Virus record (IMG/VR): IMGVR_UViG_3300025875_000006
Span: 25,614 to 89,613 of that record
Reading direction: 5' to 3' (one strand)
From: a virus
Lineage: Duplodnaviria; Caudoviricetes
Length of the DNA: 64,000 nucleotides
Positions within the stretch are counted from its first letter, which is position 1; the number at the start of each line of letters is the position of its first letter. A program made the position numbers and the translations under genes. Shown in pieces: positions 45,115 through 62,411 of the stretch. A model generated the notes under the pieces. The model was not told the origin of the DNA. It searched no databases and worked only from the letters and a program-made list of their open reading frames with translations.

Positions 45115-46767
45115 ATGGCGGGTGGGGTGCTTCGACGCAGCGGCCGGGCGACATCGACTCCGGAAGCGGTCACCGCATCCGCCAAGGTGGTCCAGATGCC
45201 CGAGCGCCGGGCCGCCACGGCCCGGTACAGCCAGCCGCGCGCGATCACCGCGTCGGCCGAGCAGGTGGACCTGGACCACGCCTGGCAGGAGCGGGCCAAG
45301 GGCGGGAGCTACCGGACCCGCCAGGAGGAGGCCTGGACCGGCTACGAGCGGGTCGGCGAGGTGCACTACGCCTTCAACCTGACCGCGAACATCCTCTCCC
45401 GCCTCCGGGTCTTCCCCGCCGCCATCCCGGAGAGCGACGAGGCCCCGCAGGGGGCCAAGGACGCCGCCGACAAGGGCCGCATCTCCTCCGACCTCGCGCG
45501 TGACGCCGAGGAGACCATGCGGGAGATCAGCGGCCCGACCTTCGCCGGGCTGGTGCGCAGCTTCGCGCTGAACGTCAACGTCCCCGGCGAGTGCTACATG
45601 GTCCGGCTGCCGGGCGAGGACCGGCAGGGCAACAAGACGGTCCAGTGGAAGGTGGTCTCCACCGACGAGCTGGTCTTCGACCAGCAGGGCGCGTGGCTCC
45701 GCCCGATCAAGGGCGAGACGACGCAGCAGAAGCGCCTGGCCAAGGGCACGTTCGTTGGCCGCATCTGGCGCGCGCACCCGCGCTACTCCGGCGAGCCCGA
45801 CAGCTCCATGATGGGCGTGGCCGACGCCGTCGAGGAGCTGCTGATCCTCCAGCGCCTGGTGCGCTCCGCGACCCGCACGCGGCTCAACAACGGCCTGCTG
45901 TTCCTGCCCGACGGCCTGCTGACCAACCGCATGTACATGGCCCTCCAGGGCCTGGCCGAGGACGGCCAGCCGCTCCCGCCCGAGGAGCTGGAGGCGATGG
46001 CCTCCGACCCGGGCAACCAGCTGGTCGCCGACATCATGCAGGCCATCGTCACGGCCATCTCCGACGAGGGCGACGCCGCTGCGGTGGCCCCGATCATGGT
46101 CACCGGTGACGGTGGCCTGGCCGAGCAGATCAAGCACATCACCTTCGAGCGCGGGTCCGACGACTGGCTGGTCAACCGGACCGAGCGCGCGCTGGAGCGC
46201 ATCCTCCAGGGGATCGACGTCCCCAAGGAGGTCGTGACCGGGCTGGCCAACGTCAAGTACAGCAACGCCCTGGTCATTGACGAGAACCTCTACAAGGCGA
46301 CCATCGAGCCGCTGGCGCTGGTCCTGGTGGACGCGCTGACCGAGGTCTTCCTGCGGCCTCTGTTGAGGGCCAAGGGCTATAGTGAGTCCGACATCAACCG
46401 GATCGTGGTCTGGTACGACCCGTCCGAGATCGTCACCCGTCCGAACCAGTCGGCCGACGCCAGCGACGGCTTCGACAAGTTCCTGGTCGGCCCGGGGGCC
46501 TGGCGGCGCGAGCACGGCTTCGGTGACGACGACGCGCCGTCCGAGGCCGAGCTGGGGATGATGCTGCTGACCAGCGGCACGCCGCTCCCCCAGGACGTCC
46601 AGATGGCCCTGCTCCAGTCGCTGCTGCCCACCGTGCTGGGCAAGCAGCGGGAGGAGAACCAGGAGGGCCAGCCGGTGCCGTTCCCGCAGAGCGCCACCGA
46701 CGTCCTGACGCCCCCGACCGCAGCCACGGCCATCAACGACGCAGGAACCGGAGCGACCGCCGCGTGA
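45115..46767 (+). CDS. portal protein
   Basis: 550 aa; AWTGYERVGEVHY, VPGECY, WRAHPRYSGEPDS, NNGLLFLP; located between TerL and the head genes. Confidence 0.88.
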   Translation: MAGGVLRRSGRATSTPEAVTASAKVVQMPERRAATARYSQPRAITASAEQVDLDHAWQERAKGGSYRTRQEEAWTGYERVGEVHYAFNLTANILSRLRVFPAAIPESDEAPQGAKDAADKGRISSDLARDAEETMREISGPTFAGLVRSFALNVNVPGECYMVRLPGEDRQGNKTVQWKVVSTDELVFDQQGAWLRPIKGETTQQKRLAKGTFVGRIWRAHPRYSGEPDSSMMGVADAVEELLILQRLVRSATRTRLNNGLLFLPDGLLTNRMYMALQGLAEDGQPLPPEELEAMASDPGNQLVADIMQAIVTAISDEGDAAAVAPIMVTGDGGLAEQIKHITFERGSDDWLVNRTERALERILQGIDVPKEVVTGLANVKYSNALVIDENLYKATIEPLALVLVDALTEVFLRPLLRAKGYSESDINRIVVWYDPSEIVTRPNQSADASDGFDKFLVGPGAWRREHGFGDDDAPSEAELGMMLLTSGTPLPQDVQMALLQSLLPTVLGKQREENQEGQPVPFPQSATDVLTPPTAATAINDAGTGATAA

Positions 46768-49700
46768 GCGACCAGCCGCAGTACACCACCGCGATCATCG
46801 CGGCCGTCCCCACCGCCGAGGACCCGGTCCACGAGATCGTCGCCGAGGACGCGCACGTCACGCTCCAGTTCCTGGGCGAGGCGGCCGACCTCTCGGACGA
46901 GCAGATCGAGGGCATCAAGACGACGCTGGGCCTGATCGCGGCCAACGTCTACGCCTTTCCGGTGGACGTCTCCGGCACCGCCGAGCTGGGCCAGGACAAG
47001 GCCCAGGTGCTGCTCATCCAGAGCACCATGCTGACCAAGATCAGGGAGACGCTGGGTCTGGACGAGTCGGTGTCAACCGCCGTCGCCAGCGTGGAGCAGT
47101 TCCCGAACTGGATTCCGCACCTGACCATGCAGTACGAGGGCGAGCAGCCCGACGTGGCCGCCTTCAAGGAGGTCACCATCGGCTCCCTGGAGCTGTGGCT
47201 GGCCGACGAGCACCTGGTCTTCCCGCTGGGCGAGTCCGCGCCGGTCACCGCCGCCGGGTACAAGACCTTCACCGAGCACCTGCACCCGCGCGGTGCCGAC
47301 GGCCGGTTCATCGAGAAGTTCGGCGTGGTCAAGTACCTGACCGCCAAGGGCTGGGCCTACGGCAAGGTCGAGGGCATCTACGAGGAGAACGACCAGGTCA
47401 AGCTGACGGTCACCCCGTCGGACCTGGCCGGGAAGACCCACGGCGAGTCCCTGGTCCTGAGCCCGAAGCAGGTCTACCGGGCCCCGAAGACCAAGGCCCA
47501 CCTGAAGACCTCCGACGTCGGCGTGACCAAGATCGGCGGCCAGGGCGGGTCCAACCCCGGCGGCATGTACCAGATGCCGTCGATCACGCCGCAGAGCCTG
47601 GACGACGCGGCGGCCAACGGCGTGGCCACCGAGAAGTTCTACGTCAAGAAGCCGAAGACCAAGAGCCACGGCGCGAACGAGGCGCTGGCCAACGCGCTGT
47701 ACGAGGAGGCCGGGGTCCCGGTCCCCGAGGTGGACTTCCACGCCGACGGCCAGCTCTACAGCAAGGTCATCGACGGCGAGCAGAACATGGCCGCCAAGCT
47801 GAAGGACCCGGAGTGGACCGACCAAGTCCGCCGGAACTTCGCCGTGGACGCCTGGCTGGGCAACCGCGACGTCTTCGGGATGACCTACGACAACATCCTG
47901 ACCGACGCCAACGGCGTGCCCTGGCGCATCGACAACGGCGGGGCGCTGCTCTACCGGGCGATGGGCGAGAAGAAGACCGACTTCGGCTCCAAGGTCAGCG
48001 AGCTGGACGCCTTCCGGCAGGGCAAGAAGGCCGCGATCTACGGGCCGGGCATGACCAAGGCCCAGGAGATCGACGGGGCCGAGCGCGTCGTGGCCATCAC
48101 GCCGCAGCGCATCGAGGAGATGGTCAGCGACGCCGGGCTCCCGGCCTCCCTGGCCGACACCCTGAAGGCCCGGCGGCTCTACCTGGCCAACTACTACGGC
48201 CTCCAGCTCCCGGAGTCCCAGAAGGCTGCCGAGGCCCAGGAGGGCTCCACCGCGCCCGTGGTGGACACCGCCGACCTGGCGGCCAACAAGGGCAAGCCCC
48301 GGGGCTGGTTCAAGACCACGCTGGCGCAGGCCGCGATGCTGCTCCAGGGCGGCGACAAGATCGAGCTGCCCGACGGCACGACCCGGGTCTTCGGCATCGA
48401 CGGCACCGGCAACGCGCTGTCCATCGTCGGCGAGCAGGCCAGCCTGCTGGGCTGGCAGCAGGAGTTCGGCCCGGCGGCCGAGGTCTACTTCCGCAAGACC
48501 GCCAAGGAGGCCGACGCCGTCCGGCCCGACCACGGCCAGAAGCTGAAGGGCAGCGACCTCGCGGCCCAGCGCTGGCACCGGGGCGACAAGATCAGCGCGC
48601 TCGGCATGGGTGCGCCGCTGAAGATCAAGGGCTGGAACGACAGCACCGGCGCGGTGCTGGTCGAGCACCCCGACGGCAGCCAGCAGCTGCTGGACACCTT
48701 CGGGGCCGACGGCAACACCACCTGGACCGTCGAGCGCTGGGACCCGCCAGCGGTTGACACGCTGGTCGAGGACATCCCGGCCACGCCGGTGCCGACCGTC
48801 TCCCAGCTGGAGGACGTCGTCACCAAGGCCAGCGAGCCCGAGGTCGAGGACGACCTGGTCAGCTACAAGGCCACCTCCGACGGTGCCTACGAGCAGGCCC
48901 CCGCCGTCGCGCCGGGCAAGACCGGCCAGGCCGCCGAGACCGAGGCCGCGCTGAAGGCCGACCTGGTGACCCCGCTGCCCACCGGCAGCGGCGCTCCCGC
49001 GCCGGGCAAGACCACCGCGCCCGGCGGCGCGAAGACGATGGTCGTGGGCGACGGCACCGAGGCCAGCACCGGCGACGCCGTGACCAGCAAGAAGGACGGC
49101 AAGACCTACACCTTCGTCAAGCCGAAGGGCCAGTACGCCGTCGTCACCGACCCCAACGGCGACGACCCCACGAAGCAGCTGCTGAAGCTGGCCAGCACCA
49201 TGACGCAGCCGGGCAAGCTCCCGGCCGGTGACCTGGACGTCGAGCTGCCGAAGACCGCCACCGGCGAGGTCCCGGCGCTGGGCATGATGGCGCAGGCCAA
49301 GGACGGCTGGGCGGGTGAGATCACGCTCATCAGCCCCGACGGCAAGTTCGTCTTCATCACCGACGCCAACGGCAAGCGGAAGCGGAAGTCCACCGGCACC
49401 GTCTCGATCACCGGCGGCGTCGTCCCGGCGGCCGAGCAGCCGCAGGTGGCCGTCGGGCCGGTCAAGGACTACGGCCCCGAGGTGTTGCAGCCCTGGAAGG
49501 GCGAGGAGAAGGCCACCGGCTGGCTGGCCGTGGACGACCTCACCGCTGCCCAGATGGTGCACGTCAGCTACGCGGACGGCACGCACGGCCTGGAGCCCTA
49601 CACCGGGCAGCCGCTGGGCTCGCTCCAGGTCAACAGCCAGGAGAAGGTCGCCGTCTTCGGCAGCCTGAAGGACTACCTCGGCCCCATCGCGCCGAGCCAG

Positions 49701-52700
49701 CTGGCGGCGGCCGGGAAGGCCGACAACGGGGCCACGACCTACCAGGTCATCTTCATGGGCAACGTCTTCTTCACCGACGGGACGACGGGCCCCAGCGGCG
49801 GCCTGGTGCTCTGGTACGCCGACGACAACGACGGCGACCTGCCCGGCACCGACGCCTTCGAGATGCCGCTGGGCGGCAAGCCGCTGATGACCATCATCGG
49901 CAGCGAGAAGGCCACCAGCGTGCCGCTGGTCATGCCCGAGATCGGCAGTGTGGCGTTCCAGGCCGCCGACGAGGTGACCTACGACGGCTTCGTCACGCCG
50001 ATCCTGTACGGCGACGAGGCCAAGACGCTGTCGGGCTGGAAGGGCCAGCTGTCCCCCGGCCAGGAGATCAGCCTGGACGGCCAGAACTGGCTGTCGATCA
50101 AGGCCGTCAGCCCCAGCGGCTCGGTCACGATCACCACCGGCAACGGCCAGGACGTCTTCATCAACCCCTGGTCCTCGGCCACCTACGTGGTCAAGGCCCC
50201 GGCGCTGGTGGACGGCGACGCTGCTCCGAGCCAGGCGGTTGACACCGACGACGACCTCGGCCCGGTCCTGCCGAAGAAGAAGGGCACGGACCTGGTCGCC
50301 GGGGACGTGATCAAGGACTTCGAGGGCAACATCTCGGTGATCAAGTTCATCGAGCCCGACGAGTCCTACGGCGACGGCACCAGCGCGCTGAGCGTGCACG
50401 CCTACGGCGGGCCGGTCGAGGGCGAGTACATGCCCGGCAGCGCTGAGCTGCCCTTCCTGGGCAACGCGGCCGAGGGCTTCGTCAGCCTGAAGCTGGCCGA
50501 CCAGGTGGAGCACTTCTACCCCGGCCTGAAGATCGAGGTCAGCTCCACCGAGCAGCTGACCGTGGCCAGCTACCCGAGCCTCCAGTTGGACACCGGCGGC
50601 TTCAAGTTCGCCGCGATGGTCAACGGCGACCCCGACGACCTGATCCTGGTGGACACGCACGAGGCCTTCGGTCCCGAGGCCGTGCTGCCCATGCAGTTCG
50701 CGCCCGGGTCGAGCGCGAGCGAGCTGGGCCTGGACATCGCCAAGCTGAACGAGCTGTTCAACCCGGCCCCGACGGTCGAGACCCCGCCGGACCACTACTG
50801 GCTGATGACCGAGCAGGGCCTGACTTTCGGCACTGCTCAGTACCCGATCTTCTTCAACGCCGCCGACTCGTCCTACTACCGCAGCGGTCCGAACGGCGTG
50901 GAGGGCTGGATCGACGGGAAGTGGGAGGCCGACGCCAGCCTCTCCGTCGTCGGCATGGACAAGGTCTGGGACGGCGCTCCCTTCCAGGGTGCGCTGGTCA
51001 TCCCGGAGAACACCGACCTGACGCTGTACGGCGCGGGCGCGGCGAACTACAAGCCGAAGCCGGGCGAGGCCGTCGCCATCGTCACGCTGGCGTCGGGCAA
51101 CGCCAGTGCGCTGGTGGTGTCCCCGTCGGGCAGCTTCGCGGGCGACCAGCACGTGATGACCATCGACGGCAGCGGCAACCTGCTGACGCCGGGCTACACC
51201 GCCGACTCCCTGCTGGGCGGCGGCAGCACGCTGAACGTCATCCACGACCCGTTCGCCTCCGAGGCGGCCGACAGCAAGCCGCGCGTGACCCACCAGGACG
51301 GCCCCCAGCCGCCCGCTGCCATCGGCCAGAAGCTCCAGAGCGTCGGGTACACCCCGAAGCCGGGCGAGACGCTGTGGGCCGTCCAGACCGAGGACGGCAA
51401 GACCGTCGTGCTGGTCAAGCAGCCCGACGGCAACTACCTGAAGCTGATGACCAGCGGCCAGCTGGGCTCCAAGGTCTGGACGACCGAGGAGCTGCTGGGC
51501 TGGGACGCGCAGCCCAACCTGTCGCACTTCACCTGGACCTACCTGCCCGAGGGTGCGGACGCGCCGACCGCCGTGCCAGGTCTGCCCGAGGGCTACGCGC
51601 CGTTCGTGCCGGGCGAGGGCCAGTCCCTGCTGAAGGTCACGCTGGCCAACGGCAAGACCAACGTCTACGTCCAGAAGCAGACGGGCGCGGGCTGGTACGA
51701 GCTGGGCCCCGACGGCTCGGTCAACGAGTCCTCCGACGCGGTGAAGTCCAACCACGTCGTCCAGCAGAAGCTGTCCACGGCCAGCAGCGGCAGCGCGGCG
51801 AAGTACGAGCTGCTGCACCCGCTCCCCGAGGGCCTGAAGCCCGCCGGGGAGAGCGCGGCCGTCCCGACGCTGAGCAACAAGAGCGGCGGCGAGTGGACGC
51901 CCGAGCCCGACCAGAAGGTCATGGCGCTCACGAGCTTCGACGGCGACACCGACCCCTGGTTCTTCTTCCAGGAGGCCGACACCGGCTGGTGGGTGCCCGC
52001 GCCGAACACCGAGGGCGCGTCCGGCAGCGGCGGCTTCAGCAACGAGCAGGCCCAGGAGTTCATGGCCGCCACCACGGCGGGCAAGTCCGGGTCGCAGTAC
52101 AAGCTGGTCTACGACGGGTCTGCCGCCGCCGCTGCGGGCCCGGCTCCGGCGTTCTCCGGCTACACCCCGAAGGCTGGGGAGGAGGTCTTCCAAGAGCCCA
52201 ACGGGTCGCACTGGGTGGTCAGCGGCAGCACCGTCTACCCGGTCAACGACGACGGCACCCTGTCCGAGGCCGGTTCGATGTCCAAGGCGGCCTGGGACGC
52301 CGACCCGGCCATCAGCTCCGGGGACGTCATCGCCAAGGTCTGGCCTGCTGCTGCCTCGGCGGTTGACACGCCGCCGAGCTTCGGCGGGTACACCCCGGTC
52401 ACCGGCGACCAGGTGCTCCAGGAGCCCGACGGCACATACTGGGTGAAGTCGGCGGCCGACAAGAAGTGGCACGCCGTCACCGTCCAGGGCACCCTCTCCC
52501 AGGCCTCGCTGGACGACGTCGAGTGGGGCCAGTCCCAGGTCGCCGGGACCACGCAGGCCTGGCCGGTGCCCGGCGGCTCGGTCAGCGACCCGGCCACGGG
52601 CGGGGTCTTCGAGGGCTACCAGAGCGCGCCGACCGACAACGTCCTCCAGGCGGTGGGCCCGGCCGGGTCGTTCCACCTGGTCAAGCTCGCTGGCAAGGGC

Positions 52701-55700
52701 ATCTGGCAGAAGGTGCTGCCCGGCGGCCAGCTGGAGGACGCCGAGGACGGCTTCAGCCAGGACTCCATCGAGTACGCCACCACCTCCCCGAACAACCCGG
52801 TCACGTTCACCGTGCTCCAGGGCAGCGTGAAGGCGGGCGCGGTCACCGAACCCGCCGAGCCGCTGGTGGCGCAGCCCTACGCCGGGGTCGCCTCGCTGAC
52901 CCTGCTGACCCTGCTGACCCCGGGGACGTACAACTTCGGCGGCTACACGCCGACCCCGGAGCAGACCAAGAAGATCGAGCAGTACGCCAGCGTGCTGCAC
53001 GTCGGTCAGTCGATCTACGCGCTGGAGGACAGCACCGGCGGCCTGCCGACCACCGGCGTTGTCCTGCGCAAGGCCGACGGCAGCTGGGAGACGATCTACG
53101 CCAACGGCGACAAGGTGCTGATCGCCGGGTCCGACCAGGGCATGGAGGAGTACGCCCAGTCGGCTGGCTGGACGATCCACAAGGCGCAGTTCACCGCCCC
53201 GATGGCGGCTCCGGCCGCGCCGAAGACCTACTCCGGCCCGACCATCTCCGGCTGGGCGGACCTGGGCATCCCGGACCCGGCCACCTTCGGCTACCTCGCC
53301 AGCCCCGGCGACGAGCTGCCGTCGGCCTCGGTGGGCGACTGGGTCTACATGCAGGGCAACGACCCGAGCGCGGGCATGTTCGGCAAGATCGCCGCCGTCC
53401 CCGGGGTCAACGACAACACCGTGGCGCTGTCGGACTACGTCATGGTCAAGGACGGCAAGACCGGGGCCCCGAAGTCCCCGGCCGTGCCGGTGCACATGCC
53501 CATCACCGCGATGGAGGGCTTCTACCTCTCCAGCTCGCAGGGCACCGGTGCCGCCCCGAACACGAACCCGGGCGTCACCTCTACCCCGGCGGCCCCGAGC
53601 ACGCCTGCGGCCAGCGCCCCCAGCGCCCCGCAGGCGGCCTCTCCGGCCGCTCCGGTGGGTCCGCAGTACCCCGGGGCCCAGAAGCCGAGCCAGGAGGACA
53701 TCAACGCCTGGGGCGGTGCGCTGACCAAGGACGGCTACATCCCCTCGCCGGGGATGTTCGTCTCGGGCAAGGGCCCGATGACCGGCAAGATCGTCTCCGT
53801 CTCCAAGGACAAGACCAAGGCCGTCGTGCTGAAGGCCGACGGGACGAAGACGACGCGCCTGATCGAGGCCATCAAGACCGACAAGTCGGCCAACTACAGC
53901 GCCTACGCGGCCCCGGCCACGCTGAAGGACATCCCGCAGGGGATGCCGCTGGCGGTTGACAGCGTCGCCGAGGTGCTGGCCAAGACCCCGCAGGACGGCA
54001 AGTTCCGCGCCATCCTCTCGGCGCACCCCGGCGTGAGCCACGGCCAGATGACCGTGACCAAGGCGACCGGCCCGTCCGGCAAGGTCTACAGCCGGGTGCA
54101 CATGACCCTGACCCCGGCGCAGCGCGAGCAGCTGATGAGCCTGCTGGCGGGCGTGGGGGAGAAGGGCGACTGGGCGACCAGCTCCAAGTCCTCCGAGCAG
54201 GTCGCCATCGGCGACCAGCTGCCCATGCGGAAGTCCTCCACGGACAACCCGGACGGCACGCCGCGCTGGAAGGTGGACCCGTCCCAGGTGCCGCCGACCC
54301 ACAAGGTCACCGGCGTGGCCGACGACCCGTCGGGCTCCGGCGTCAAGATCGTCACGATGGCCAACATCCAGACCGGCGAGGTCATCACCAGCCGCTTCCA
54401 CCCCGGCAAGCCGCTGACGACCTATGCCTGGGACCCGAACAAGCCGAAGAAGGTGGCCCCCGGGGCCTTCAGCATCGGCGAGACGGCCAAGGCGATGGGC
54501 TGGGCGCTGGCCAACGACGGTGGCATCTCGGCGGCCAAGAACGGCGCGGGCGACGCCCAGCTCTACAACGAGCCCGGCAGCTCGGTCACGAAGTCGGCGT
54601 TCCAGCACTCCAGCACCAGCTGGCAGACGCTGCGCAACGTCAGCGAGGACGGCGTGGTCATCGAGCTGGTGGACCCGAAGGGGTCGGACAACAAGTCCAC
54701 CACCGGCACGACGGTCATCTCCGTCCCCGAGGGCCTGGACGAGAAGGCCCTGGGCGCGGCGCTGAGCAAGCTGGGCGTGGACTACTCGCCGATGACGCAG
54801 GACAGCGCGAAGGACAACGTGCGCGGGATGCTGCGCACCCTGCTGAGCCTGGACATGAGCGACGTGGACACGGCCAAGGGCTGGAGCGACGACAAGCTGT
54901 TCACGCAGGCCGGGAAGACGATGGGCATCACCGACCTGGGCTGGCACGACGTGCTGGTCGGGGTGGACGAGTCCACCGGCACCCCGGCGTACTTCTGGTC
55001 CGACCGGGCGCGCAACGCGCTGGCCGCGAAGTCCAAGGTCAACGTGATCTACCGGTCGGCCAACAGCGCCGACGCGGCTCAGATCGTGTCAACCGTGAAG
55101 TACGGGTCGGCCAGCTCCATCCTGAAGCGCACCGCCGGGATGCTGGACGGCACCGGCTCCACCGGTTCCGGTGCTTCCTGGAGCACGGACAACGGCAACC
55201 ACGCCGGGCACGGGTCCTACGCCTCCGCCGGGGTGCACTCCAAGCTGCCCAGCGGCAACAACCAGGCCAGCTACAAGCACAGCGGGATGATGGTCTACCA
55301 CCGCCCCGAGGCCGTCCTGGGCCGGATCATGGACTACCGGACCGGCACCGGGGACGTCTACGGCAAGGGCAAGGGCTCCGGCTCGGACCACCTGGCCTAC
55401 GCCACGTCGCTGTCCTCGGTGACGGACTTCTTCCTGGGCGGCGGGCTCCCGACCGAGGCCGTCGGCTTCATCGCGGTCAGCGACCAGAGCGAGCGGGCCA
55501 AGGCCATCGAGAAGCTGAAGGCCGACGGCTACAGCCACATCAACGGCCGCCCGGTCGAGGAGATCGTCATCCTGAAGTCGCAGGCCCAGAACATGAGCCC
55601 GAACGACCTGCCGCCGGTCACGCTGCCCAGCAACGCCCGGCCGATCCTGGACCTGCCGACCTCCTACGGCGCGGCTCCGTCCGCCGCCGATGCCACCGTC

Positions 55701-55730
55701 GTTGCCGCCGCCGAGGAGACCGCCGCGTGA
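46764..55730 (+). CDS. giant multidomain (polyvalent) virion-associated protein: 2H phosphoesterase, HipA/PI3K-like kinase, SH3/KOW-like repeats, possible ART-like C-terminus
   Basis: HVT and HLT (2H pair); YVK..NE.LA...DAWLGNRD..DN..RIDNGG kinase motifs; repeated Y.P..G(E/D) modules; GTGA coupling to the portal gene. Confidence 0.85.
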   Translation: MSDQPQYTTAIIAAVPTAEDPVHEIVAEDAHVTLQFLGEAADLSDEQIEGIKTTLGLIAANVYAFPVDVSGTAELGQDKAQVLLIQSTMLTKIRETLGLDESVSTAVASVEQFPNWIPHLTMQYEGEQPDVAAFKEVTIGSLELWLADEHLVFPLGESAPVTAAGYKTFTEHLHPRGADGRFIEKFGVVKYLTAKGWAYGKVEGIYEENDQVKLTVTPSDLAGKTHGESLVLSPKQVYRAPKTKAHLKTSDVGVTKIGGQGGSNPGGMYQMPSITPQSLDDAAANGVATEKFYVKKPKTKSHGANEALANALYEEAGVPVPEVDFHADGQLYSKVIDGEQNMAAKLKDPEWTDQVRRNFAVDAWLGNRDVFGMTYDNILTDANGVPWRIDNGGALLYRAMGEKKTDFGSKVSELDAFRQGKKAAIYGPGMTKAQEIDGAERVVAITPQRIEEMVSDAGLPASLADTLKARRLYLANYYGLQLPESQKAAEAQEGSTAPVVDTADLAANKGKPRGWFKTTLAQAAMLLQGGDKIELPDGTTRVFGIDGTGNALSIVGEQASLLGWQQEFGPAAEVYFRKTAKEADAVRPDHGQKLKGSDLAAQRWHRGDKISALGMGAPLKIKGWNDSTGAVLVEHPDGSQQLLDTFGADGNTTWTVERWDPPAVDTLVEDIPATPVPTVSQLEDVVTKASEPEVEDDLVSYKATSDGAYEQAPAVAPGKTGQAAETEAALKADLVTPLPTGSGAPAPGKTTAPGGAKTMVVGDGTEASTGDAVTSKKDGKTYTFVKPKGQYAVVTDPNGDDPTKQLLKLASTMTQPGKLPAGDLDVELPKTATGEVPALGMMAQAKDGWAGEITLISPDGKFVFITDANGKRKRKSTGTVSITGGVVPAAEQPQVAVGPVKDYGPEVLQPWKGEEKATGWLAVDDLTAAQMVHVSYADGTHGLEPYTGQPLGSLQVNSQEKVAVFGSLKDYLGPIAPSQLAAAGKADNGATTYQVIFMGNVFFTDGTTGPSGGLVLWYADDNDGDLPGTDAFEMPLGGKPLMTIIGSEKATSVPLVMPEIGSVAFQAADEVTYDGFVTPILYGDEAKTLSGWKGQLSPGQEISLDGQNWLSIKAVSPSGSVTITTGNGQDVFINPWSSATYVVKAPALVDGDAAPSQAVDTDDDLGPVLPKKKGTDLVAGDVIKDFEGNISVIKFIEPDESYGDGTSALSVHAYGGPVEGEYMPGSAELPFLGNAAEGFVSLKLADQVEHFYPGLKIEVSSTEQLTVASYPSLQLDTGGFKFAAMVNGDPDDLILVDTHEAFGPEAVLPMQFAPGSSASELGLDIAKLNELFNPAPTVETPPDHYWLMTEQGLTFGTAQYPIFFNAADSSYYRSGPNGVEGWIDGKWEADASLSVVGMDKVWDGAPFQGALVIPENTDLTLYGAGAANYKPKPGEAVAIVTLASGNASALVVSPSGSFAGDQHVMTIDGSGNLLTPGYTADSLLGGGSTLNVIHDPFASEAADSKPRVTHQDGPQPPAAIGQKLQSVGYTPKPGETLWAVQTEDGKTVVLVKQPDGNYLKLMTSGQLGSKVWTTEELLGWDAQPNLSHFTWTYLPEGADAPTAVPGLPEGYAPFVPGEGQSLLKVTLANGKTNVYVQKQTGAGWYELGPDGSVNESSDAVKSNHVVQQKLSTASSGSAAKYELLHPLPEGLKPAGESAAVPTLSNKSGGEWTPEPDQKVMALTSFDGDTDPWFFFQEADTGWWVPAPNTEGASGSGGFSNEQAQEFMAATTAGKSGSQYKLVYDGSAAAAAGPAPAFSGYTPKAGEEVFQEPNGSHWVVSGSTVYPVNDDGTLSEAGSMSKAAWDADPAISSGDVIAKVWPAAASAVDTPPSFGGYTPVTGDQVLQEPDGTYWVKSAADKKWHAVTVQGTLSQASLDDVEWGQSQVAGTTQAWPVPGGSVSDPATGGVFEGYQSAPTDNVLQAVGPAGSFHLVKLAGKGIWQKVLPGGQLEDAEDGFSQDSIEYATTSPNNPVTFTVLQGSVKAGAVTEPAEPLVAQPYAGVASLTLLTLLTPGTYNFGGYTPTPEQTKKIEQYASVLHVGQSIYALEDSTGGLPTTGVVLRKADGSWETIYANGDKVLIAGSDQGMEEYAQSAGWTIHKAQFTAPMAAPAAPKTYSGPTISGWADLGIPDPATFGYLASPGDELPSASVGDWVYMQGNDPSAGMFGKIAAVPGVNDNTVALSDYVMVKDGKTGAPKSPAVPVHMPITAMEGFYLSSSQGTGAAPNTNPGVTSTPAAPSTPAASAPSAPQAASPAAPVGPQYPGAQKPSQEDINAWGGALTKDGYIPSPGMFVSGKGPMTGKIVSVSKDKTKAVVLKADGTKTTRLIEAIKTDKSANYSAYAAPATLKDIPQGMPLAVDSVAEVLAKTPQDGKFRAILSAHPGVSHGQMTVTKATGPSGKVYSRVHMTLTPAQREQLMSLLAGVGEKGDWATSSKSSEQVAIGDQLPMRKSSTDNPDGTPRWKVDPSQVPPTHKVTGVADDPSGSGVKIVTMANIQTGEVITSRFHPGKPLTTYAWDPNKPKKVAPGAFSIGETAKAMGWALANDGGISAAKNGAGDAQLYNEPGSSVTKSAFQHSSTSWQTLRNVSEDGVVIELVDPKGSDNKSTTGTTVISVPEGLDEKALGAALSKLGVDYSPMTQDSAKDNVRGMLRTLLSLDMSDVDTAKGWSDDKLFTQAGKTMGITDLGWHDVLVGVDESTGTPAYFWSDRARNALAAKSKVNVIYRSANSADAAQIVSTVKYGSASSILKRTAGMLDGTGSTGSGASWSTDNGNHAGHGSYASAGVHSKLPSGNNQASYKHSGMMVYHRPEAVLGRIMDYRTGTGDVYGKGKGSGSDHLAYATSLSSVTDFFLGGGLPTEAVGFIAVSDQSERAKAIEKLKADGYSHINGRPVEEIVILKSQAQNMSPNDLPPVTLPSNARPILDLPTSYGAAPSAADATVVAAAEETAA

Positions 55731-56593
55731 CCGCTCCAGTGCAGTTCCCCAACCCGGCCATGCTGGAGACCACGTTCCGGCAGGTCACTGACCCGGTGAC
55801 CGAGACCGAGGAGGACGTCACCTACCTCCTCCCGGTCGGCGGGCTGGCCTACGGGGCGGCCGGTGGAGGCATCTCTGTCGGCTGGGACTCCGAGGACCAC
55901 ATCCGGGGTGTCATCCTGTCCTCCGTCGAGGACCAGGGCGACTGGATCGTGGGCACGGGGCCCGAGGGCCAGGTCTACCGGTTCCGCGACCTGGACCCGC
56001 ACGACGCAGTGACGATGTCCCCGGCTGGGGTCCCCCAGCCGCTGATGGTGGTGCAGGCCGAAGTGATCCGAGGGGGAGTCTTGGCGCAGTCTCTGGACGC
56101 CGTGGTGGCGGCCGACAACACGGTGGCCACGCTCATGCTGGAGACCGGCATGGGGACCTTCGTCCGCTACGCCGGGGACTGGCAGCTGCTGGCCGACGAC
56201 AGCGGCGCGCTGGAGGACTGCTCGCTGGTCGCCGTCGGGGCCGGAGCCCTGAGCGTCTGGGACGCGGCCGACTCCGCCAGCCAGACCATCTCGGTCTTCG
56301 ACCTGCCGCTGAAGACCGGCAACGGCGACGAGGTCATCGACCCCGAGGCCGAGCCGGACGTCGAGACGGCGGCGGCCATCGCGGCCAGCGGCGTCTCCAT
56401 CCCGCAGGTCAGCCGGGTGGAAGACCTGGACCTGGCCATCCGCTACGCCAACACCCACCCGACCGCCCGCTGGTACGTGACCAAGCGCGCGAGCGCGCTG
56501 GCCGCGTCGGCCCGCATCCCGGCGCACTGGAACGTCGTCCCGGCGGTGAACCCGGCCCCTTTCTCCCTGACGCACCAGGAGCAGGAGATGTAG
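55727..56593 (+). CDS. head-associated hypothetical protein
   Basis: FVRYAGDW module also seen in the protease; C-terminal DLDLAIRYA...YVTKRASAL...IPAHW. Confidence 0.7.
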   Translation: MTAPVQFPNPAMLETTFRQVTDPVTETEEDVTYLLPVGGLAYGAAGGGISVGWDSEDHIRGVILSSVEDQGDWIVGTGPEGQVYRFRDLDPHDAVTMSPAGVPQPLMVVQAEVIRGGVLAQSLDAVVAADNTVATLMLETGMGTFVRYAGDWQLLADDSGALEDCSLVAVGAGALSVWDAADSASQTISVFDLPLKTGNGDEVIDPEAEPDVETAAAIAASGVSIPQVSRVEDLDLAIRYANTHPTARWYVTKRASALAASARIPAHWNVVPAVNPAPFSLTHQEQEM

Positions 56594-56646
56594 TCCGGCT
56601 GGACAGCCCGGATGCTGTCCGGGCCGCCGCCGGGCTGTTCTCCGGC

Positions 56647-58134
56647 ATGGTCGCCGCTGGGCAGCAGCCGCCGTCGGGCTTCTTCCCGGCGCTGATCGCG
56701 GCTGCTCGTGTCAGCGGGATGCTGGATGATCCGGCTGTGCTGACGGCCTCCAAGTGGCAGGACTGGCTGCACCCGCGCGGCAAGGACGGGCGCTTCATCG
56801 AGAAGCAGAGCTTCGTCAACGTCTTCGCCAACCCGAACGCCCTGCTGAGCGACCGCACGGCCGTCCGCCGCCGGGCGCGGATCAACGAGCTGCGGCCCGA
56901 GGGGGCCTACGTCAGCTACCAGGACATCGAGGGCAACCCGATCCCGGCCGACCCCGAGGCGGGCTTCCCCGACCTGATCCCGGTGGACGACTTGTCCACG
57001 AAGGTCAGCACCGCGCCCACGGCCATCGCGCACCTCCAGCCGGGCGAGAGCGCGGCCAAGGAGGTCGCCGACGCGCTGGTCCCGGCCATGACCCGGGAGA
57101 GCTGGGAGGCCGAGATCGCGGCGCTGTCCGCGTCGCTGGCCGCCGACCGGCCGGAGCAGCTGGTCACCGTGTCAACCGGCCAGGGCGAGGTCACGCCCGA
57201 GGAGTTCCAGGAGCACCAGGCCTACATCAGCTGGGTCAACACCATCGGCATGAAGGGCCCCGGCCGCTCGCTGGCGATGGACGGCGCGTTCAAGGACAGC
57301 TTCGGGCTCTGGTCGGAGGAGATGCAGCAGGTCTTCGACGCCCTGGTGGACGACGCCTACAACGACCTGACCCGGAACCAGACGAAGCCGCGCAACCGCC
57401 GGGCCATCATGCTCGGTGGCCTGCCCGGTGCCGGGAAGTCCTCCACGCTGGAGGCGATGACGAAGGCCGGGGTCTTCCGCGAGGACGAGTGGATCATCGC
57501 CAACCCGGACTACTTCAAGGACGTCATCATCGCCAAGGGGCTGGCCCCGCAGCTGTCCGGGCTCACCCCGGCGGAGACGGCCAGCTTCATCCACGAGGCC
57601 AGCTCCGAGATGAACCACATGCTGGAGCAGCTGCTGACCGTCGAGGGCTTCAACGTCATCTTCGACATCACGATGGGCGGCCGGATGCGGCCGGGCGAGA
57701 AGTCCTGGACCGAGCGCATCGTGGACCGGCTGGAGGCGCTGGACTACAGCACCGACGGCCTGTTCGTGGACGTGCCGCCGACCACCAGCCGCCAGCGCGC
57801 GCAGTCCCGGCACATGGCCGGGCTGAACACGCTGCGGACCGGCCAGTCGGCGCGGCCCAACGACCCCGAGCTGAAGAACGGCGGCCGGACGGTGCCTGAC
57901 GCCGTGATCAACGCGGCCGAGTTCGGCGAGAACGACCCCGACGCCGAGTCCTACTCCAGCCACAACGCCCGGAACTTCGCAGCGCTGAAGGAGCAGTTCG
58001 CCCGCTGGGCGGTCTACGACAACTCCGGCGACGCGCCCTACCTGGCCGACAGCAGTGGCGGGACCGACCCGGACCCGACCATGCTGCCGGGCTTCTACGA
58101 GGCCGTGCAGGCAGAGGAGGCGCAGGCCGCGTGA
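56647..58134 (+). CDS. zeta-toxin-like P-loop kinase with N-terminal HPRG tag
   Basis: AIMLGGLPGAGKSS, IANPDYFK, FIHEASS, VIFDITM, GRTVP. Confidence 0.85.
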   Translation: MVAAGQQPPSGFFPALIAAARVSGMLDDPAVLTASKWQDWLHPRGKDGRFIEKQSFVNVFANPNALLSDRTAVRRRARINELRPEGAYVSYQDIEGNPIPADPEAGFPDLIPVDDLSTKVSTAPTAIAHLQPGESAAKEVADALVPAMTRESWEAEIAALSASLAADRPEQLVTVSTGQGEVTPEEFQEHQAYISWVNTIGMKGPGRSLAMDGAFKDSFGLWSEEMQQVFDALVDDAYNDLTRNQTKPRNRRAIMLGGLPGAGKSSTLEAMTKAGVFREDEWIIANPDYFKDVIIAKGLAPQLSGLTPAETASFIHEASSEMNHMLEQLLTVEGFNVIFDITMGGRMRPGEKSWTERIVDRLEALDYSTDGLFVDVPPTTSRQRAQSRHMAGLNTLRTGQSARPNDPELKNGGRTVPDAVINAAEFGENDPDAESYSSHNARNFAALKEQFARWAVYDNSGDAPYLADSSGGTDPDPTMLPGFYEAVQAEEAQAA

Positions 58135-58460
58135 CCGCGCCCGTGCAGGAGCCCCAGGCGGGCCAGAACGTGCAGGAGGTCCGCGACGCCATCGAGGCGA
58201 TGCGGACCGGCGCGGGGACCTTCGAGGAGCTGCGAGCGGCTGTCGGCCGGGCGAAGTTCGCCGTCCGGCCGACGGCCCGTTCCGAGGAGGACATCGCGGC
58301 GAACTGGGACTACGTCCCGCTGGAGGACAGCTTCACCGATACCGTGGTAGCCGCACGGTGGCAGAGAGTGCTCACCGCAGAGCAGGTGGGGGAGCTTCAG
58401 CGCATGGCCCAGTTCGTCGGACCCGAGCCCAGTCGCGTCCCTGCTGACCAGGAGAGCTGA
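58131..58460 (+). CDS. small acidic protein coupled to the zeta gene
   Basis: GTGA overlap; 109 aa helical. Confidence 0.7.
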   Translation: MTAPVQEPQAGQNVQEVRDAIEAMRTGAGTFEELRAAVGRAKFAVRPTARSEEDIAANWDYVPLEDSFTDTVVAARWQRVLTAEQVGELQRMAQFVGPEPSRVPADQES

Positions 58461-58461
58461 G

Positions 58462-60738: not shown

Positions 60739-61538
60739 TGCAGACCGGCCTGCTCCAGCGGCTGGAGGTGCTGACGGCGGCTCTGGCCGCCGCAGCGCCG
60801 GAGCCGACGCACCGGATCAAGGCCGACTACGGCCCCGCCGGACCCCCCAAGAAGAAGGGGTCCGGCGGCGGCCGGAAGGTCGCCAGCAAGGCCGGGGAGA
60901 AGCGCTACGGCCTGCCCATCGGCACGCCGCTGGGCGGGACGAAGTCCAAGGCGAAGGGCGACGCTGCCACGCAGCAGAGCTACGACACCTTCATGGGCGC
61001 GAACACCCCGGCCGACCAGCGCAAGGCGGCGGCCTGGATGTCCACCGCCGACCTGGGCCGGGCGGCCGAGGCGCTGTTCAGCTTCAGCTCGGACAACGAG
61101 CGGGACGAGTCGGCGCGGCGGGCGCTGGTGCGCGAGCTGGCCGACCGTGGCATCGACCCGAGGTCGATGGGCTACCGGGGCCCGGCCGTCGTGCTCAACC
61201 CGAGCCCGAAGCAGGACCCGACCGTGAAGGCCGCCGAGACGGCCCAGCGGAAGGTGGAGCAGGCGACGAAGCAGCAGGAGACGGCGGCGCGCAAGGTCCA
61301 GCGCGAGCAGGAGACCGCCGTGCGCAAGGCCGAGAGCGCGCAGAAGACGGCGCAGCGCGACGCCGAGCGCGCCCAGCGGGAGTCCGAGGCGGCCCAGCGC
61401 CGTGAACTGGACCGCCAGATCGCCGAGACCGAGAAGGTCGTGCGCGAGCGCGAGGGCCAGGCGCTGGCGCAGGGGCTGCTGGAGGAGCAGGAGATCAGGG
61501 CGGCGCGCGCCCGGAGGCAGCTGGTCCGCGCCGGTTGA
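60738..61538 (+). CDS. head-module protein with long charged coiled coil
   Basis: RKVASKAGEKRYGLPIGTPL motif and E/K/R/Q-rich heptads; TGATG coupling. Confidence 0.7.
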   Translation: MQTGLLQRLEVLTAALAAAAPEPTHRIKADYGPAGPPKKKGSGGGRKVASKAGEKRYGLPIGTPLGGTKSKAKGDAATQQSYDTFMGANTPADQRKAAAWMSTADLGRAAEALFSFSSDNERDESARRALVRELADRGIDPRSMGYRGPAVVLNPSPKQDPTVKAAETAQRKVEQATKQQETAARKVQREQETAVRKAESAQKTAQRDAERAQRESEAAQRRELDRQIAETEKVVREREGQALAQGLLEEQEIRAARARRQLVRAG

Positions 61539-61549
61539 CACGGACAGCA

Positions 61550-61582
61550 GAAGGGCCCCCCGCCAGTGGCGAGGGGCCCTTC
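61550..61582. terminator. hairpin between convergent genes
   Basis: GAAGGGCCCC...GGGGCCCTTC. Confidence 0.8.
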
Positions 61583-61597
61583 GTTCGTGCGGGAGGA

Positions 61598-62032
61598 TCA
61601 GGCCTGCTCGGCGTCCTCGTCGGCCTGCTCGGCCTCGGCCAGCTTGGCCATCGCGGCCTCGTCGTCCGGGTCCACCTCGTGCTCGCTGAAGGTGTACTCG
61701 TCACCGGCGGTCAGACCGGCCAGGATGGCGTTGAACGCCTCCTGCTCGGCGGCCGACAGCTTGCCCTCGGCGACGTCCTTCTTGGCCTGGAGGTAGGCCT
61801 CGTAGTCCCGGGTCTGCGCCAGCTCCAGCGCCTTGACGGCACCGGTCTGCATCTTGCGCAGCTCGTTGACGACGGCCTGGAGGACGGCGACCTGCTTCTC
61901 CTGGGTCATGTTCGGCTTGCCGGAGACCGCCTTGTTGATCGCCCGCGCCGACTCCGCCAGCTTGTGGCGGTAGGGGGTGAGGGTCTTCGGGGTGACGGGA
62001 GCCGGGGTGTTCTCGGGGGTCTGGTCGCTCAT
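61598..62032 (-). CDS. helical hypothetical protein
   Basis: MSDQTPENT; RBS GAGAGG; acidic tail. Confidence 0.7.
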   Translation of the reverse strand: MSDQTPENTPAPVTPKTLTPYRHKLAESARAINKAVSGKPNMTQEKQVAVLQAVVNELRKMQTGAVKALELAQTRDYEAYLQAKKDVAEGKLSAAEQEAFNAILAGLTAGDEYTFSEHEVDPDDEAAMAKLAEAEQADEDAEQA

Positions 62033-62220: not shown

Positions 62221-62411
62221 GCAAGAAGAATAGACCCTGCCTCTCAACACTGTCAACTAGATTATTTCTGCGTGTCGTGGCGGCCCGTTCGGCCTCGTCT
62301 CAACCAAGTCGGTCCTGTACCGTCCCGCAGTGAAGCGACGACAGACGGTGACCGCTCCCGTCTGATCGGACCTCCGGTGATGTCTGACCCTTCCACCGGA
62401 GGCATCCCTTC

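What the first reader, a model, noticed from the sequence alone, without database searches (positions are those of the whole stretch)
47244..56805. Shared xTA(A/S)...HPRGxDGRFIEK tag on two unrelated effector proteins
Seen: the giant protein has PVTAAGYKTFTEHLHPRGADGRFIEK (HPRG..EK at 47283-47318) and the zeta protein has VLTASKWQDWLHPRGKDGRFIEK (56770-56805). Eleven of these 12 residues are identical, and each tag begins 6-8 residues after a TA(A/S) motif, in otherwise dissimilar proteins. Inference: cleavage after TA(A/S) would expose a common new N-terminus acting as a capsid-loading or ejection address label, i.e. a modular cargo system that could accept other effectors. The RKVASKAGEKRYGLPIG motif of gene 60738 may be a second tag.
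Basis: partly seen in the sequence, partly recalled or inferred. Interest (0 to 1): 0.78.

Follow-up and report, generated by a model that had tools for sequence, protein, structure and literature searches.

The report
Shared cargo header on phage head proteins
Two different enzymes encoded next to the portal gene of an uncultured 90-kb actinophage-like virus begin with the same ~90-residue header (an HPRGxDGRF motif plus a small beta-barrel). The short motif recurs, often many times per protein, in over a thousand clusters of phage head-associated giant proteins, so it probably marks enzymes that are loaded into the capsid, cut apart and injected with the DNA.

Summary
These are the only two copies in the 89.6-kb virus genome.

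It runs: (V/L)TA(A/S), 5-9 residues, an aromatic residue, four residues, HPRGxDGRFIEK, an SH3/Tudor-like barrel, then AP..(K/I)AHL. It spans about 87-99 residues from the TA(A/S) motif. AlphaFold confidence (pLDDT) over the tag and barrel is 92-97 in both proteins.

The short tag is widespread. A profile search finds 1013 protein clusters, with up to 16 tags per protein at a median spacing of 276 aa. Tags sit at N-termini, between domains, or right after portal or MuF domains (prohead-protease domains also occur in tagged proteins). They precede zeta kinases, ADP-ribosyltransferases, RelA/SpoT, NUDIX, ParB-like and nuclease domains. Free-standing tagged genes follow the portal gene in 7 of 10 cases tested.

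Two sister phages share 74% identity through the header, then carry different cargo: a zeta kinase in one, an alarmone-synthetase-like domain in the other.

The (L/I/V)TA(A/S) motif is enriched 4.2-fold in head-module proteins only, which fits a prohead-protease site. Cleavage itself is untested.

The proposed second tag (RKVASK...) occurs once in the genome and is not supported.

No Pfam, NCBIfam, PHROG or PDB entry and no paper searched describes the motif. This scan has found the same tag before on other DNA (e1-5984721, e1-5928422, e1-5966457).

The parts
45115..46767 (+). Portal protein gene. The first tagged gene overlaps its stop codon.
   Evidence: phrog_776 portal, E = 1.6e-96. The N-terminus carries AVTASA (aa 19) and AITASA (aa 44); the second is conserved in all five relatives, the first only in the three closest.
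46764..55730 (+). Giant 2988-aa polyvalent protein, the first tagged gene.
   Evidence: ORF. Its only tag/header lies at aa 161-247.
46785..47198 (+). 2H (LigT-like) phosphoesterase domain, lying upstream of the tag.
   Evidence: PF13563 E = 8.7e-5, below the gathering score. phrog_2659 RNA ligase E = 1.4e-10. The orthologues in G001 and G003 score above Pfam's cut-off.
47244..47255 (+). VTAA (aa 161-164), a candidate prohead-protease site or N-flank of the tag.
   Evidence: Resembles APVVAA/EPVTAA at the major capsid protein delta boundary. The motif is enriched in the head module only.
47268..47318 (+). Tag core in the giant protein: FTEHLHPRGADGRFIEK (aromatic at -5 through K).
   Evidence: pLDDT 92-95 in the model. 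Matches the family consensus [WF]x4HPR[GD]xxG[RK]F.
47319..47504 (+). SH3/Tudor-like small beta-barrel ending APKTKAHL.
   Evidence: AF2 strands at pLDDT 94-96. Foldseek and VIA give Tudor/chromo/KOW-type barrels at Z 6-8. Alignment A2.
55727..56593 (+). 288-aa gene of unknown function lying between the two tagged genes.
   Evidence: No Pfam or PHROG hit. In G003 and G004 its homologue is fused in frame to the N-terminus of the header-plus-cargo protein.
56647..58134 (+). 495-aa zeta-toxin-like kinase, the second tagged gene.
   Evidence: PF06414 E = 4.2e-14, 52.9 bits against a cut-off of 22.3, over aa 242-418. Walker A GLPGAGKS at aa 258. AF2 mean pLDDT 90.7.
56740..56751 (+). LTAS (aa 32-35), a candidate protease site or N-flank of the tag.
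   Evidence: Lies in predicted helix 29-36 at pLDDT about 75. Orthologues read LTAA/LAAG/VAAT/IAAI.
56755..56805 (+). Tag core in the zeta protein: WQDWLHPRGKDGRFIEK.
   Evidence: pLDDT about 92.
56806..57036 (+). Beta-barrel of the zeta-protein header, ending APTAIAHL.
   Evidence: AF2 strands 56-60, 74-83, 86-92, 110-112 and 120-122 at pLDDT 92-97. Aligned with the giant's barrel in A2. Sequence support without the tag is weak.
57370..57900 (+). Zeta-toxin kinase domain, the cargo of the second header.
   Evidence: In sister phage G003 this position holds a small-alarmone-synthetase-like domain instead.
58131..58460 (+). 109-aa gene overlapping the zeta gene's stop codon.
   Evidence: No family hit. 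Its homologue forms the C-terminus of the fused zeta protein in G004. Starts MTAPVQ, as the 288-aa gene does.
58462..60738 (+). 758-aa protein with a prohead (head maturation) protease domain at aa 431-633. It is the candidate enzyme for (L/I/V)TA(A/S) cleavage.
   Evidence: phrog_18402 E = 1.6e-55. Carries six motif copies of its own.
60738..61538 (+). 266-aa scaffold-like protein with a coiled-coil C-terminus. It holds VLTAAL at aa 11-16 and the single RKVASKAGEKRYGLPIG.
   Evidence: No PHROG hit.
62412..63998 (+). Major capsid protein, running off the end of the window, with an N-terminal delta-like region of about 150 aa.
   Evidence: phrog_777 E = 1.3e-60. RAPVVAAA at aa 148-155, conserved as PV(V/T)(A/S/V)(A/S/P) in relatives.

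Best explanation
The shared sequence is the header of a virion-cargo module. In this phage lineage the header has four parts:
- a (L/V)TA(A/S) element;
- the tag proper, aromatic-x4-HPRGxDGRFI, predicted as a tight turn;
- an SH3/Tudor-like beta-barrel;
- an AP..KAxL end.
Whatever follows the header is the cargo. Here that is the rest of the giant polyvalent protein in one gene and a zeta-type kinase in the other.

Proposed mechanism, all inferred:
1. The header docks the protein to the assembling prohead near the portal. The barrel would supply the anchoring that other phages obtain by fusing cargo directly to portal, MuF or protease domains.
2. The short tag is the element common to all versions. 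It would be the handle recognised during loading and/or release.
3. The prohead protease then cuts at the head-specific (L/I/V)TA(A/S) sites. In the giant protein this would separate the 2H domain from the rest. In the zeta protein it would remove the 33-35 residue leader.
4. The pieces leave the capsid with the DNA.

Shown here: the header and its predicted fold; its wide distribution and repetition; its position next to or fused with head-assembly proteins; its diverse cargo; and a natural cargo swap.

Not shown: packaging, binding partner, cleavage and ejection.
For: - Two copies only in the genome, both in the block between portal and protease.
- Confident tag-plus-barrel models for both proteins.
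- Gordonia phages Sixama gp73 and Phendrix gp66, the genes directly after the portal gene, carry ALTAA..HPRGADGR(F/W)I at aa 28-32. They are the only clear BFVD structural matches.
- The upstream neighbour is a portal protein in 7 of 10 free-standing tagged genes.
- In fusion proteins the tag lies between the anchor and the cargo: portal|tag|ParB-like, portal|tag|NUDIX, portal|tag|zeta, portal|tag|PBECR1 and MuF|tag|C-terminus. None of these 7 fusion tags has a barrel, whereas 26 of 73 N-terminal tags do.
- 1013 clusters match at E <= 1e-3. There are up to 16 tags per protein with a median spacing of 276 aa.
- Cargo among 56 tagged proteins: Zeta_toxin 10, ADPrib_exo_Tox 7, ART-PolyVal 2, plus RelA_SpoT, Gln_amidase, GNAT and Topoisom_I. 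Peptidase_S78_2 (prohead protease) domains also occur in 2.
- G003 and G004 are 74% identical over aa 1-460, through the end of the barrel. After that they are unrelated: zeta kinase in one, and a domain matching PDB 8vx3 (a small alarmone synthetase, E = 7e-16) in the other.
- The tag works at any position: extreme N-terminus (MGWNSELHPR..), internal, or extreme C-terminus (L023). That is typical of a docking motif.
- (L/I/V)TA(A/S) is enriched in the head module only and is tied to barrel-class tags.
- Polyvalent proteins are found in virions by proteomics, e.g. phi24B gp47.
- T4 provides the precedent of a short capsid-targeting sequence that loads diverse proteins and is then removed by the prohead protease (PMC9026906).
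Against: - No experiment or structure shows the tag binding anything or being cut.
- A motif this strictly conserved across phages with three different portal families and hosts from at least five phyla is hard to reconcile with a fast-evolving phage partner.
- Tags persist in proteins already covalently fused to the portal, where a loading signal should be unnecessary.
- The giant protein is 2988 aa long yet has a single header.
- The barrel's homology between the two window proteins rests mainly on predicted structure and on the end motif.
- All context evidence is gene order and domain order, and related sequences are not independent samples.
Confidence: 0.5

Rival explanations
1. The tag is only polyprotein punctuation. 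It would be the recognition or cleavage site of a protease (phage prohead protease, a peptidase inside the polyvalent protein, or a host enzyme) that cuts giant precursors into separate effectors. It would have no role in capsid loading.
For: - Up to 16 tags per protein at domain-sized spacing.
- Tags are often flanked by Gly/Ser-rich linkers, e.g. HPRGAGGRFGSGG.
- Tags lie at anchor|cargo junctions in portal and MuF fusions, where release would be needed.
- Prohead-protease domains are fused to tagged proteins.
- Homologous modules are separate genes here but one ORF in G004.
Against: - Tags occur at the extreme N-terminus (MGW.., MRKF..) and the extreme C-terminus, where there is nothing to separate.
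- In this lineage the tag is confidently predicted as part of a folded unit with the barrel (pLDDT above 90), which makes a poor protease substrate.
- Prohead-protease specificities differ between phage groups, yet the tag is near-invariant.
- The head-specific enriched motif in this genome is (L/I/V)TA(A/S), not HPRG.
Confidence: 0.2
2. The tag acts after injection, inside the host. It would bind a universally conserved bacterial component (nucleic acid, ribosome, chaperone or protease) to position, refold, activate or time the effectors. Its link to head genes would only reflect that effectors are encoded there.
For: - Near-invariance across hosts from Actinobacteria, Planctomycetes, Firmicutes, Proteobacteria and Bacteroidota suits a conserved cellular partner.
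- There is a weak local match of DGRFIEKxxF to the rRNA-contacting hairpin of ribosomal protein bS16 (E = 0.07).
- Tudor/KOW/SH3-like barrels often bind nucleic acids or peptides.
Against: - The bS16 match is not significant.
- The tag's flanks are acidic (W-D-E), not basic.
- The strict position at anchor|cargo junctions and next to portal genes is not explained.
- Only 8 strict matches occur in 185,579 cellular genomes, so it is not a general bacterial motif.
Confidence: 0.15
3. The tag is a self-contained structural or evolutionary junction. It would be a small folding nucleus or rigid spacer that also serves as a conserved recombination point for shuffling domain cassettes, with no specific binding partner.
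For: - The cargo breakpoint between G003 and G004 lies exactly at the end of the header.
- The tag marks the boundaries of shuffled domains in hundreds of architectures.
- The conserved aromatic/Pro/Arg pattern could form an autonomous turn.
Against: - The two window copies differ at synonymous sites, and tags differ widely at DNA level, so DNA homology is not what is conserved.
- A mere spacer would not keep 8-9 near-invariant residues across phyla.
- The observed swap point is after the barrel, not at the tag.
Confidence: 0.1

Closest known systems
Polyvalent proteins and MuF/portal-fused effectors of phages and conjugative elements (Iyer, Burroughs, Anand, de Souza, Aravind 2017, PMC5512222)
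   Same: - Giant multi-domain proteins encoded among head-packaging genes.
- Effector domains (2H, zeta kinase, ART, RelA/SpoT, PBECR, ParB-like) fused to MuF or portal domains.
- Predicted to be packaged and injected. That paper names zeta kinase-MuF and 2H-MuF/portal fusions explicitly.
   Different: The paper's text contains no 'HPR' string and no linker motif. The tag, its repetition between domains and the tag-plus-barrel header are not described there. The window proteins have neither a MuF domain nor a portal domain.
T4 capsid targeting sequence (CTS) of internal proteins IPI-III and Alt (Mullaney and Black 1996; reviewed in PMC9026906)
   Same: A short shared sequence on otherwise unrelated proteins directs them into the prohead. 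It is coupled to prohead-protease processing, and the proteins are injected with the DNA. It is portable to foreign proteins.
   Different: The CTS is about 10 N-terminal residues, specific to T4-like phages, unrelated in sequence, binds the scaffolding core and is removed at LxE. The HPRG tag spans many phage lineages, is internal and repeated as well as terminal, and in this lineage is followed by a folded barrel. Its function is untested.
MuF polymorphic toxins (Jamet et al. 2017, PMC5576092) and the pre-toxin junction motifs of polymorphic toxin systems (Zhang et al. 2012, PMC3482391)
   Same: A constant N-terminal trafficking part, a variable C-terminal toxin domain exchanged by recombination, and a conserved motif at the junction. 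The G003/G004 swap has exactly this pattern.
   Different: No MuF domain is present here. Jamet et al. mention no junction motif. The known pre-toxin motifs, as I recall them (VENN, PT-TG, PT-HINT, DPxGL), differ in sequence. No immunity gene was identified.
Encapsulin cargo-loading peptides (from my own knowledge; not checked here)
   Same: A short conserved peptide on diverse enzymes that docks them to the interior of an HK97-fold shell, working at either terminus.
   Different: Different sequence and no phage context. Encapsulin peptides bind the shell protein directly. The partner of the HPRG tag is unknown.
Gordonia phages Sixama gp73 and GodonK/Phendrix gp66 (uncharacterised proteins)
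   Same: Closest cultured relatives of the header: ALTAA-x-HPRGADGR(F/W)I plus barrel at the N-terminus of the large gene directly after the portal gene. They are the best BFVD fold matches, E = 2.4e-6 and 7.7e-5.
   Different: They are annotated only as hypothetical proteins. The tag is N-terminal there, with no upstream 2H domain. No functional data exist.

Membership tests
Polyvalent proteins (Iyer et al. 2017) | Several unrelated effector or enzymatic domains in one polypeptide of a phage or conjugative element | tested here: met
   The giant protein has a 2H domain, the header barrel, and more than 2700 further residues with a conserved GGQGGSNPGG domain and repeats. Relatives add a PG_binding_1 domain.
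Polyvalent proteins (Iyer et al. 2017) | Encoded in the virion packaging/head gene neighbourhood | tested here: met
   Gene order: portal 45115-46767, giant, 288-aa gene, zeta, 109-aa gene, protease 58462-60738, capsid protein 62412 onwards.
Polyvalent proteins (Iyer et al. 2017) | Physically packaged in the virion and delivered to the host | not testable with these tools
   Only precedent is available, e.g. phi24B gp47 found in virions by proteomics.
MuF polymorphic toxins (Jamet et al. 2017) | N-terminal MuF domain (PF04233) | tested here: not met
   No Phage_Mu_F hit in the giant or the zeta protein. Other tag-bearing proteins do have one (L016, L081).
MuF polymorphic toxins (Jamet et al. 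2017) | Variable C-terminal toxin domain behind a constant part | tested here: met
   G003 and G004 are 74% identical to aa 460, then carry an alarmone-synthetase-like domain and a zeta kinase respectively.
Zeta toxin kinases (PF06414) | Match to the family profile above the curated cut-off, and a Walker A P-loop | tested here: met
   52.9 bits against a cut-off of 22.3, over aa 242-418. GLPGAGKS at aa 258. The substrate and any toxicity were not tested.
T4-type capsid targeting sequence | Short N-terminal propeptide sufficient for prohead incorporation and removed by the prohead protease | not testable with these tools
   There is no sequence similarity, so this is a functional analogy only. 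The position of the candidate site (L/V)TA(A/S) upstream of the tag is an inference.
Tudor/chromo/KOW (SH3-like small beta-barrel) fold | Five-stranded small barrel superposable on solved members | tested here: inconclusive
   Foldseek E = 0.03-0.1. VIA Z = 6-8.3 with 54-64 residues aligned at 1.8-2.4 A. That range is common for small barrels and says nothing about function.
Any curated domain family covering the tag | Profile match over the HPRG segment | tested here: not met
   Pfam, PHROGs and NCBIfam give no match over the tag or barrel. The only overlap is a sub-threshold DUF7261 hit at 17.7 bits against a cut-off of 27. The PDB profile search gave nothing significant.

The most novel reading that the evidence does not exclude
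The [WF]x4HPR[GD]xxG[RK]F tag is a near-universal, portable loading or ejection signal of tailed phages. It would be recognised by a conserved feature of the portal vertex or prohead, and would let any protein that carries it, alone or strung together in polyproteins, be packed into the capsid, released by the prohead protease and injected. It would be the cross-lineage counterpart of the T4 capsid targeting sequence, and a natural plug-and-play system for phage-delivered protein cargo.
Probability: 0.3. Interest if true: 0.85.

Novelty: new variant of a known kind. Interest (0 to 1): 0.66.

Why it matters
How tailed phages choose which proteins go into the capsid and are injected is known in detail only for a few models such as T4 and P1. 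For the giant polyvalent proteins predicted in 2017 it is unknown.

A short motif shared by over a thousand protein clusters, always at the boundary between a head-anchoring part and an effector, gives a concrete handle that can be mutated. That makes the question directly testable in culturable Gordonia phages.

If the tag is a loading or release signal, it would allow three things:
- predicting injected effectors from sequence alone, including anti-defence enzymes, kinases, ADP-ribosyltransferases and alarmone synthetases;
- explaining how cargo is swapped between phages;
- providing a tool to load chosen reporter proteins into phage heads.

If it is only a structural junction, the finding is still a useful annotation landmark for domain boundaries in otherwise unannotatable giant phage proteins.

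Tried and rejected
- Chance similarity: rejected.
- Recent DNA duplication or gene conversion between the two copies: rejected, since 3 of 13 codons differ synonymously.
- Further degenerate tags in the giant protein or elsewhere in the genome: none found with the tag and module HMMs.
- Second tag RKVASKAGEKRYGLPIG: a single occurrence in the genome. Its gene has no PHROG hit.
- Known domain over the tag: none in Pfam, PHROGs, NCBIfam or PDB sequences.
- Literature: 'LHPRG' and 'HPRG + portal + bacteriophage' gave nothing relevant. The polyvalent-protein, MuF-toxin and Apk2 papers do not mention the motif.
- Asp-Gly self-cleavage chemistry: unlikely, because the residue before the Gly is D in only 173 of 370 tags, and is otherwise H, G, R or A.
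- DNA hook (AT-hook-like): unlikely, because the flanks are acidic.
- bS16 similarity: not significant, E = 0.07.
- Looking for tags in cultured phages and plasmids with multi-tag proteins: tblastn found only cargo-domain homologues. Rhodococcus phage E3 gp205 and mycobacteriophage Rizal gp102 have no tag.
- The domain directly after the giant's header (GGQGGSNPGG): no PDB sequence match.
The genomic context of the 1013 clusters therefore could not be examined beyond the IMG/VR loci.

Full report
**What the window is.**
The window is bases 25614-89613 of an 89.6-kb IMG/VR virus record with 70.7% G+C, rated complete by CheckV. Its head module runs in this order:
- portal, 45115-46767 (phrog_776, E = 1.6e-96);
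- a 2988-aa giant protein, 46764-55730;
- a 288-aa gene, 55727-56593;
- a 495-aa zeta-toxin-like protein, 56647-58134 (PF06414, E = 4.2e-14);
- a 109-aa gene, 58131-58460;
- a 758-aa protein with a head-maturation protease domain, 58462-60738 (phrog_18402, E = 1.6e-55);
- a scaffold-like gene, 60738-61538;
- the major capsid protein, from 62412.

The nearest cultured DNA matches are short stretches of Microbacterium phages.

**Checking the observation.**
BLASTP between the two proteins finds only this 38-residue stretch (E = 1e-4). A back-translated pattern and a tag HMM find exactly two sites in the whole genome. The two DNA copies differ at three synonymous codons, so selection acts on the peptide. 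In IMG/VR the pattern occurs in 92 stretches, against 4 for the reversed control.

**The shared unit is a ~90-residue header.**
Aligning tag-bearing segments from related viral contigs (A2) shows that in both window proteins the tag is followed by a beta-rich segment. It ends in AP..(K/I)AHL, at giant aa 247 and zeta aa 130.

AlphaFold2 gives confident models for both:
- Giant aa 152-275: mean pLDDT 83.9, with the tag at 92-95 and the barrel at 94-96.
- Whole zeta protein: mean pLDDT 90.7, with helix 29-36 covering PAVLTASK, the tag at about 92, five strands to aa 122, then a helical linker and the kinase domain.

The barrel resembles Tudor/chromo/KOW-type small barrels only at the level of a common fold (Foldseek E = 0.03-0.1; VIA Z = 6-8.3). 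In BFVD the only clear matches are uncharacterised proteins of Gordonia phages Sixama and GodonK. With the tag removed, sequence evidence that the zeta barrel belongs to the family is weak: it ranks 2nd of 1001 against shuffles.

**The tag elsewhere.**
In Gordonia phages Sixama (gp73) and Phendrix (gp66), the gene directly after the portal gene begins with ALTAA..HPRGADGR(F/W)I. Among the IMG/VR hits the tag has the consensus [WF][DN]xxxHPRGxDGRF. It occupies every kind of position.
- Near the N-terminus of large genes: the upstream neighbour is a portal protein in 7 of 10 tested.
- Between a portal domain and a C-terminal effector: L025 portal|tag|ddrB-ParB, L039 portal|tag|NUDIX, L078 Mu-type portal|tag|zeta, L031 portal|tag|PBECR1.
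- Directly after the MuF domain: L016, L018, L081.
- At the extreme C-terminus: L023.

A profile of 62 tags searched against 1.84 billion representative proteins finds 1013 clusters at E <= 1e-3. The best 149 proteins hold 370 tags, with a median of two per protein and a maximum of sixteen by the regular expression (HMMER counts up to 17 matched stretches). The median spacing is 276 aa. The consensus is A-A-[DE]-W-[DN]-[EP]-x-[KL]-H-P-R-[GD]-x-x-G-[RK]-F. Some proteins start right at the tag, for example MGWNSELHPR and MRKFDASLHPRG.

Domains found in 56 of these proteins include Zeta_toxin (10), ADPrib_exo_Tox (7), ART-PolyVal (2), Peptidase_S78_2 (2), RelA_SpoT, Gln_amidase, GNAT, Topoisom_I and LPD1.

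A strict pattern finds only 8 sites in 185,579 cellular genomes. They are spread over Actinobacteria, Planctomycetes, Oscillospiraceae, Sphingomonas and Flavobacteriaceae.

The barrel follows 17% of tags in the independent set. That is 36% of N-terminal tags and 12% of internal ones, and none of the seven portal or MuF fusion tags.

**A natural cargo swap.**
Five related virus records were fetched. In G003 and G004 the homologue of the 288-aa gene, the leader, the tag, the barrel and the cargo form one open reading frame. The two proteins are 74% identical over aa 1-460, up to the AP..A.L end of the barrel, and unrelated afterwards.
- G004 continues with a zeta kinase (PF06414, aa 569-736) and a homologue of the 109-aa gene.
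- G003 continues with 215 residues that match the small alarmone synthetase of PDB 8vx3 (E = 7e-16).

This is the pattern of polymorphic toxins: a constant trafficking part and an exchangeable effector. It also shows that gene boundaries in the window (288-aa gene | zeta | 109-aa gene) correspond to module boundaries in a single polypeptide elsewhere.

**The TA(A/S) element.**
[LIV]TA[AS] occurs 7 times in head-module ORFs against 1.66 expected from shuffles. In 51 other ORFs of the same genome it occurs 3 times against 4.6 expected.

Copies lie at:
- portal aa 19 and 44; the second is conserved in all five relatives;
- scaffold-like protein aa 11-14;
- the protease protein itself;
- as RAPVVAAA / REPVTAAP, at the expected boundary between the delta-like region and the body of the capsid protein. 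This closely resembles the giant's SAPVTAAG.

Among IMG/VR tags, a hydrophobic-[TVIL]-A-[AS] element precedes 16 of 21 barrel-class tags and 3 of 52 others. From my own knowledge, herpesvirus assemblin, the structural relative of phage prohead proteases, cuts at (V/L)-x-A|S. This was not checked here.

These facts fit a prohead-protease site specific to this lineage. Two points weaken the case. Ala-Ala at -8/-7 is also part of the general tag consensus, and the segment is predicted helical. Cleavage therefore remains an inference.

**Mechanism.**
I favour, at about even odds, a header that docks cargo to the assembling prohead near the portal. Processing at neighbouring head-specific sites and ejection with the DNA would follow. 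The reasons are:
- the constant association with portal, MuF and protease;
- the independence of position, typical of a docking motif;
- the complementary distribution of the barrel (present in free-standing genes, absent where cargo is covalently fused to an anchor);
- the T4 precedent of a capsid targeting sequence coupled to protease processing (PMC9026906).

The main difficulty is that a motif this invariant across phage groups needs an equally conserved partner, and none is identified.

The rival readings are pure polyprotein punctuation, a function inside the host after injection, and a partner-less structural or recombination junction. They are set out with their evidence in the Rival explanations section.

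**Comparison with what is known.**
The proteins fit the class of polyvalent and portal/MuF-fused effectors defined by Iyer et al. 2017. The cargo-swap pattern fits polymorphic toxins (Jamet et al. 2017; Zhang et al. 2012). The window proteins lack a MuF domain, so they are not MuF toxins.

Neither those papers, nor the Pfam, PHROG, NCBIfam or PDB searches, nor full-text searches, describe the tag or the header. I therefore rate it a new variant of a known kind.

This scan has met the same tag on three other genomes (e1-5984721, e1-5928422, e1-5966457). Those reports reached similar readings. I found the repetition, the barrel and the head context independently, before or without using them.

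**Limits.**
All functional statements are inferences from sequence, predicted structure and gene order, and related sequences are not independent samples. The look-up of encoding contigs and the protein atlas were unavailable, so the genomic context of most of the 1013 clusters is unknown.

Noticed in passing
55727-56593 and 58131-58460: The genes that follow each tagged gene (288 aa and 109 aa) both start MTAPVQ. In relative G004 their homologues are fused in frame to the two ends of the header-plus-zeta protein. The 109-aa product is therefore not obviously a free antitoxin of the zeta kinase.
   Followed up: partly
G003:C1:39443-40930 and G004:C1:70344-71825 (loci L109, L108): The portal matches in these two related 86-kb phages each contain two in-frame TGA codons. 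This could reflect stop-codon recoding, a frameshift or a split gene.
   Followed up: no
46785-47198; L114:16951-18510: The giant's N-terminal 2H phosphoesterase domain has orthologues that give a weak Acb1 (anti-CBASS, PF23474) hit, and in G003 and G004 they are preceded by a PG_binding_1 domain. This may be a packaged enzyme that degrades cyclic nucleotides.
   Followed up: partly
47505-48233: Directly after the header barrel, the giant protein and many relatives (L015, L040, L056, L065, L070, L088) share a conserved domain with the motif KIGGQGGSNPGGxY. It has no Pfam or PDB sequence match.
   Followed up: partly
about 51200-53100 (giant aa ~1500-2100): There are several repeats of a small unit beginning GYTP(K/V/T)(P/A/T)GE, which looks like a string of small beta domains without tags.
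   Followed up: no
45115-64000: [LIV]TA[AS] is enriched 4.2-fold in head-module ORFs and depleted elsewhere in the genome. Copies lie at the portal N-terminus, the scaffold-like N-terminus and the capsid-protein delta boundary, making it a candidate cleavage motif of the prohead protease.
   Followed up: partly
L023:2776-6528 (also L038): A 1251-aa viral protein with a cysteine-dioxygenase-like (CDO_I) domain carries the tag 23 residues from its C-terminus, with nothing after it. This shows that the tag also occurs as a C-terminal element.
   Followed up: no
58462-60738: The protease gene is a 758-aa fusion. It has about 430 N-terminal residues of unknown function, including a phrog_6439 segment at aa 305-369, then the protease domain at aa 431-633 and an acidic C-terminal tail.
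   Followed up: no
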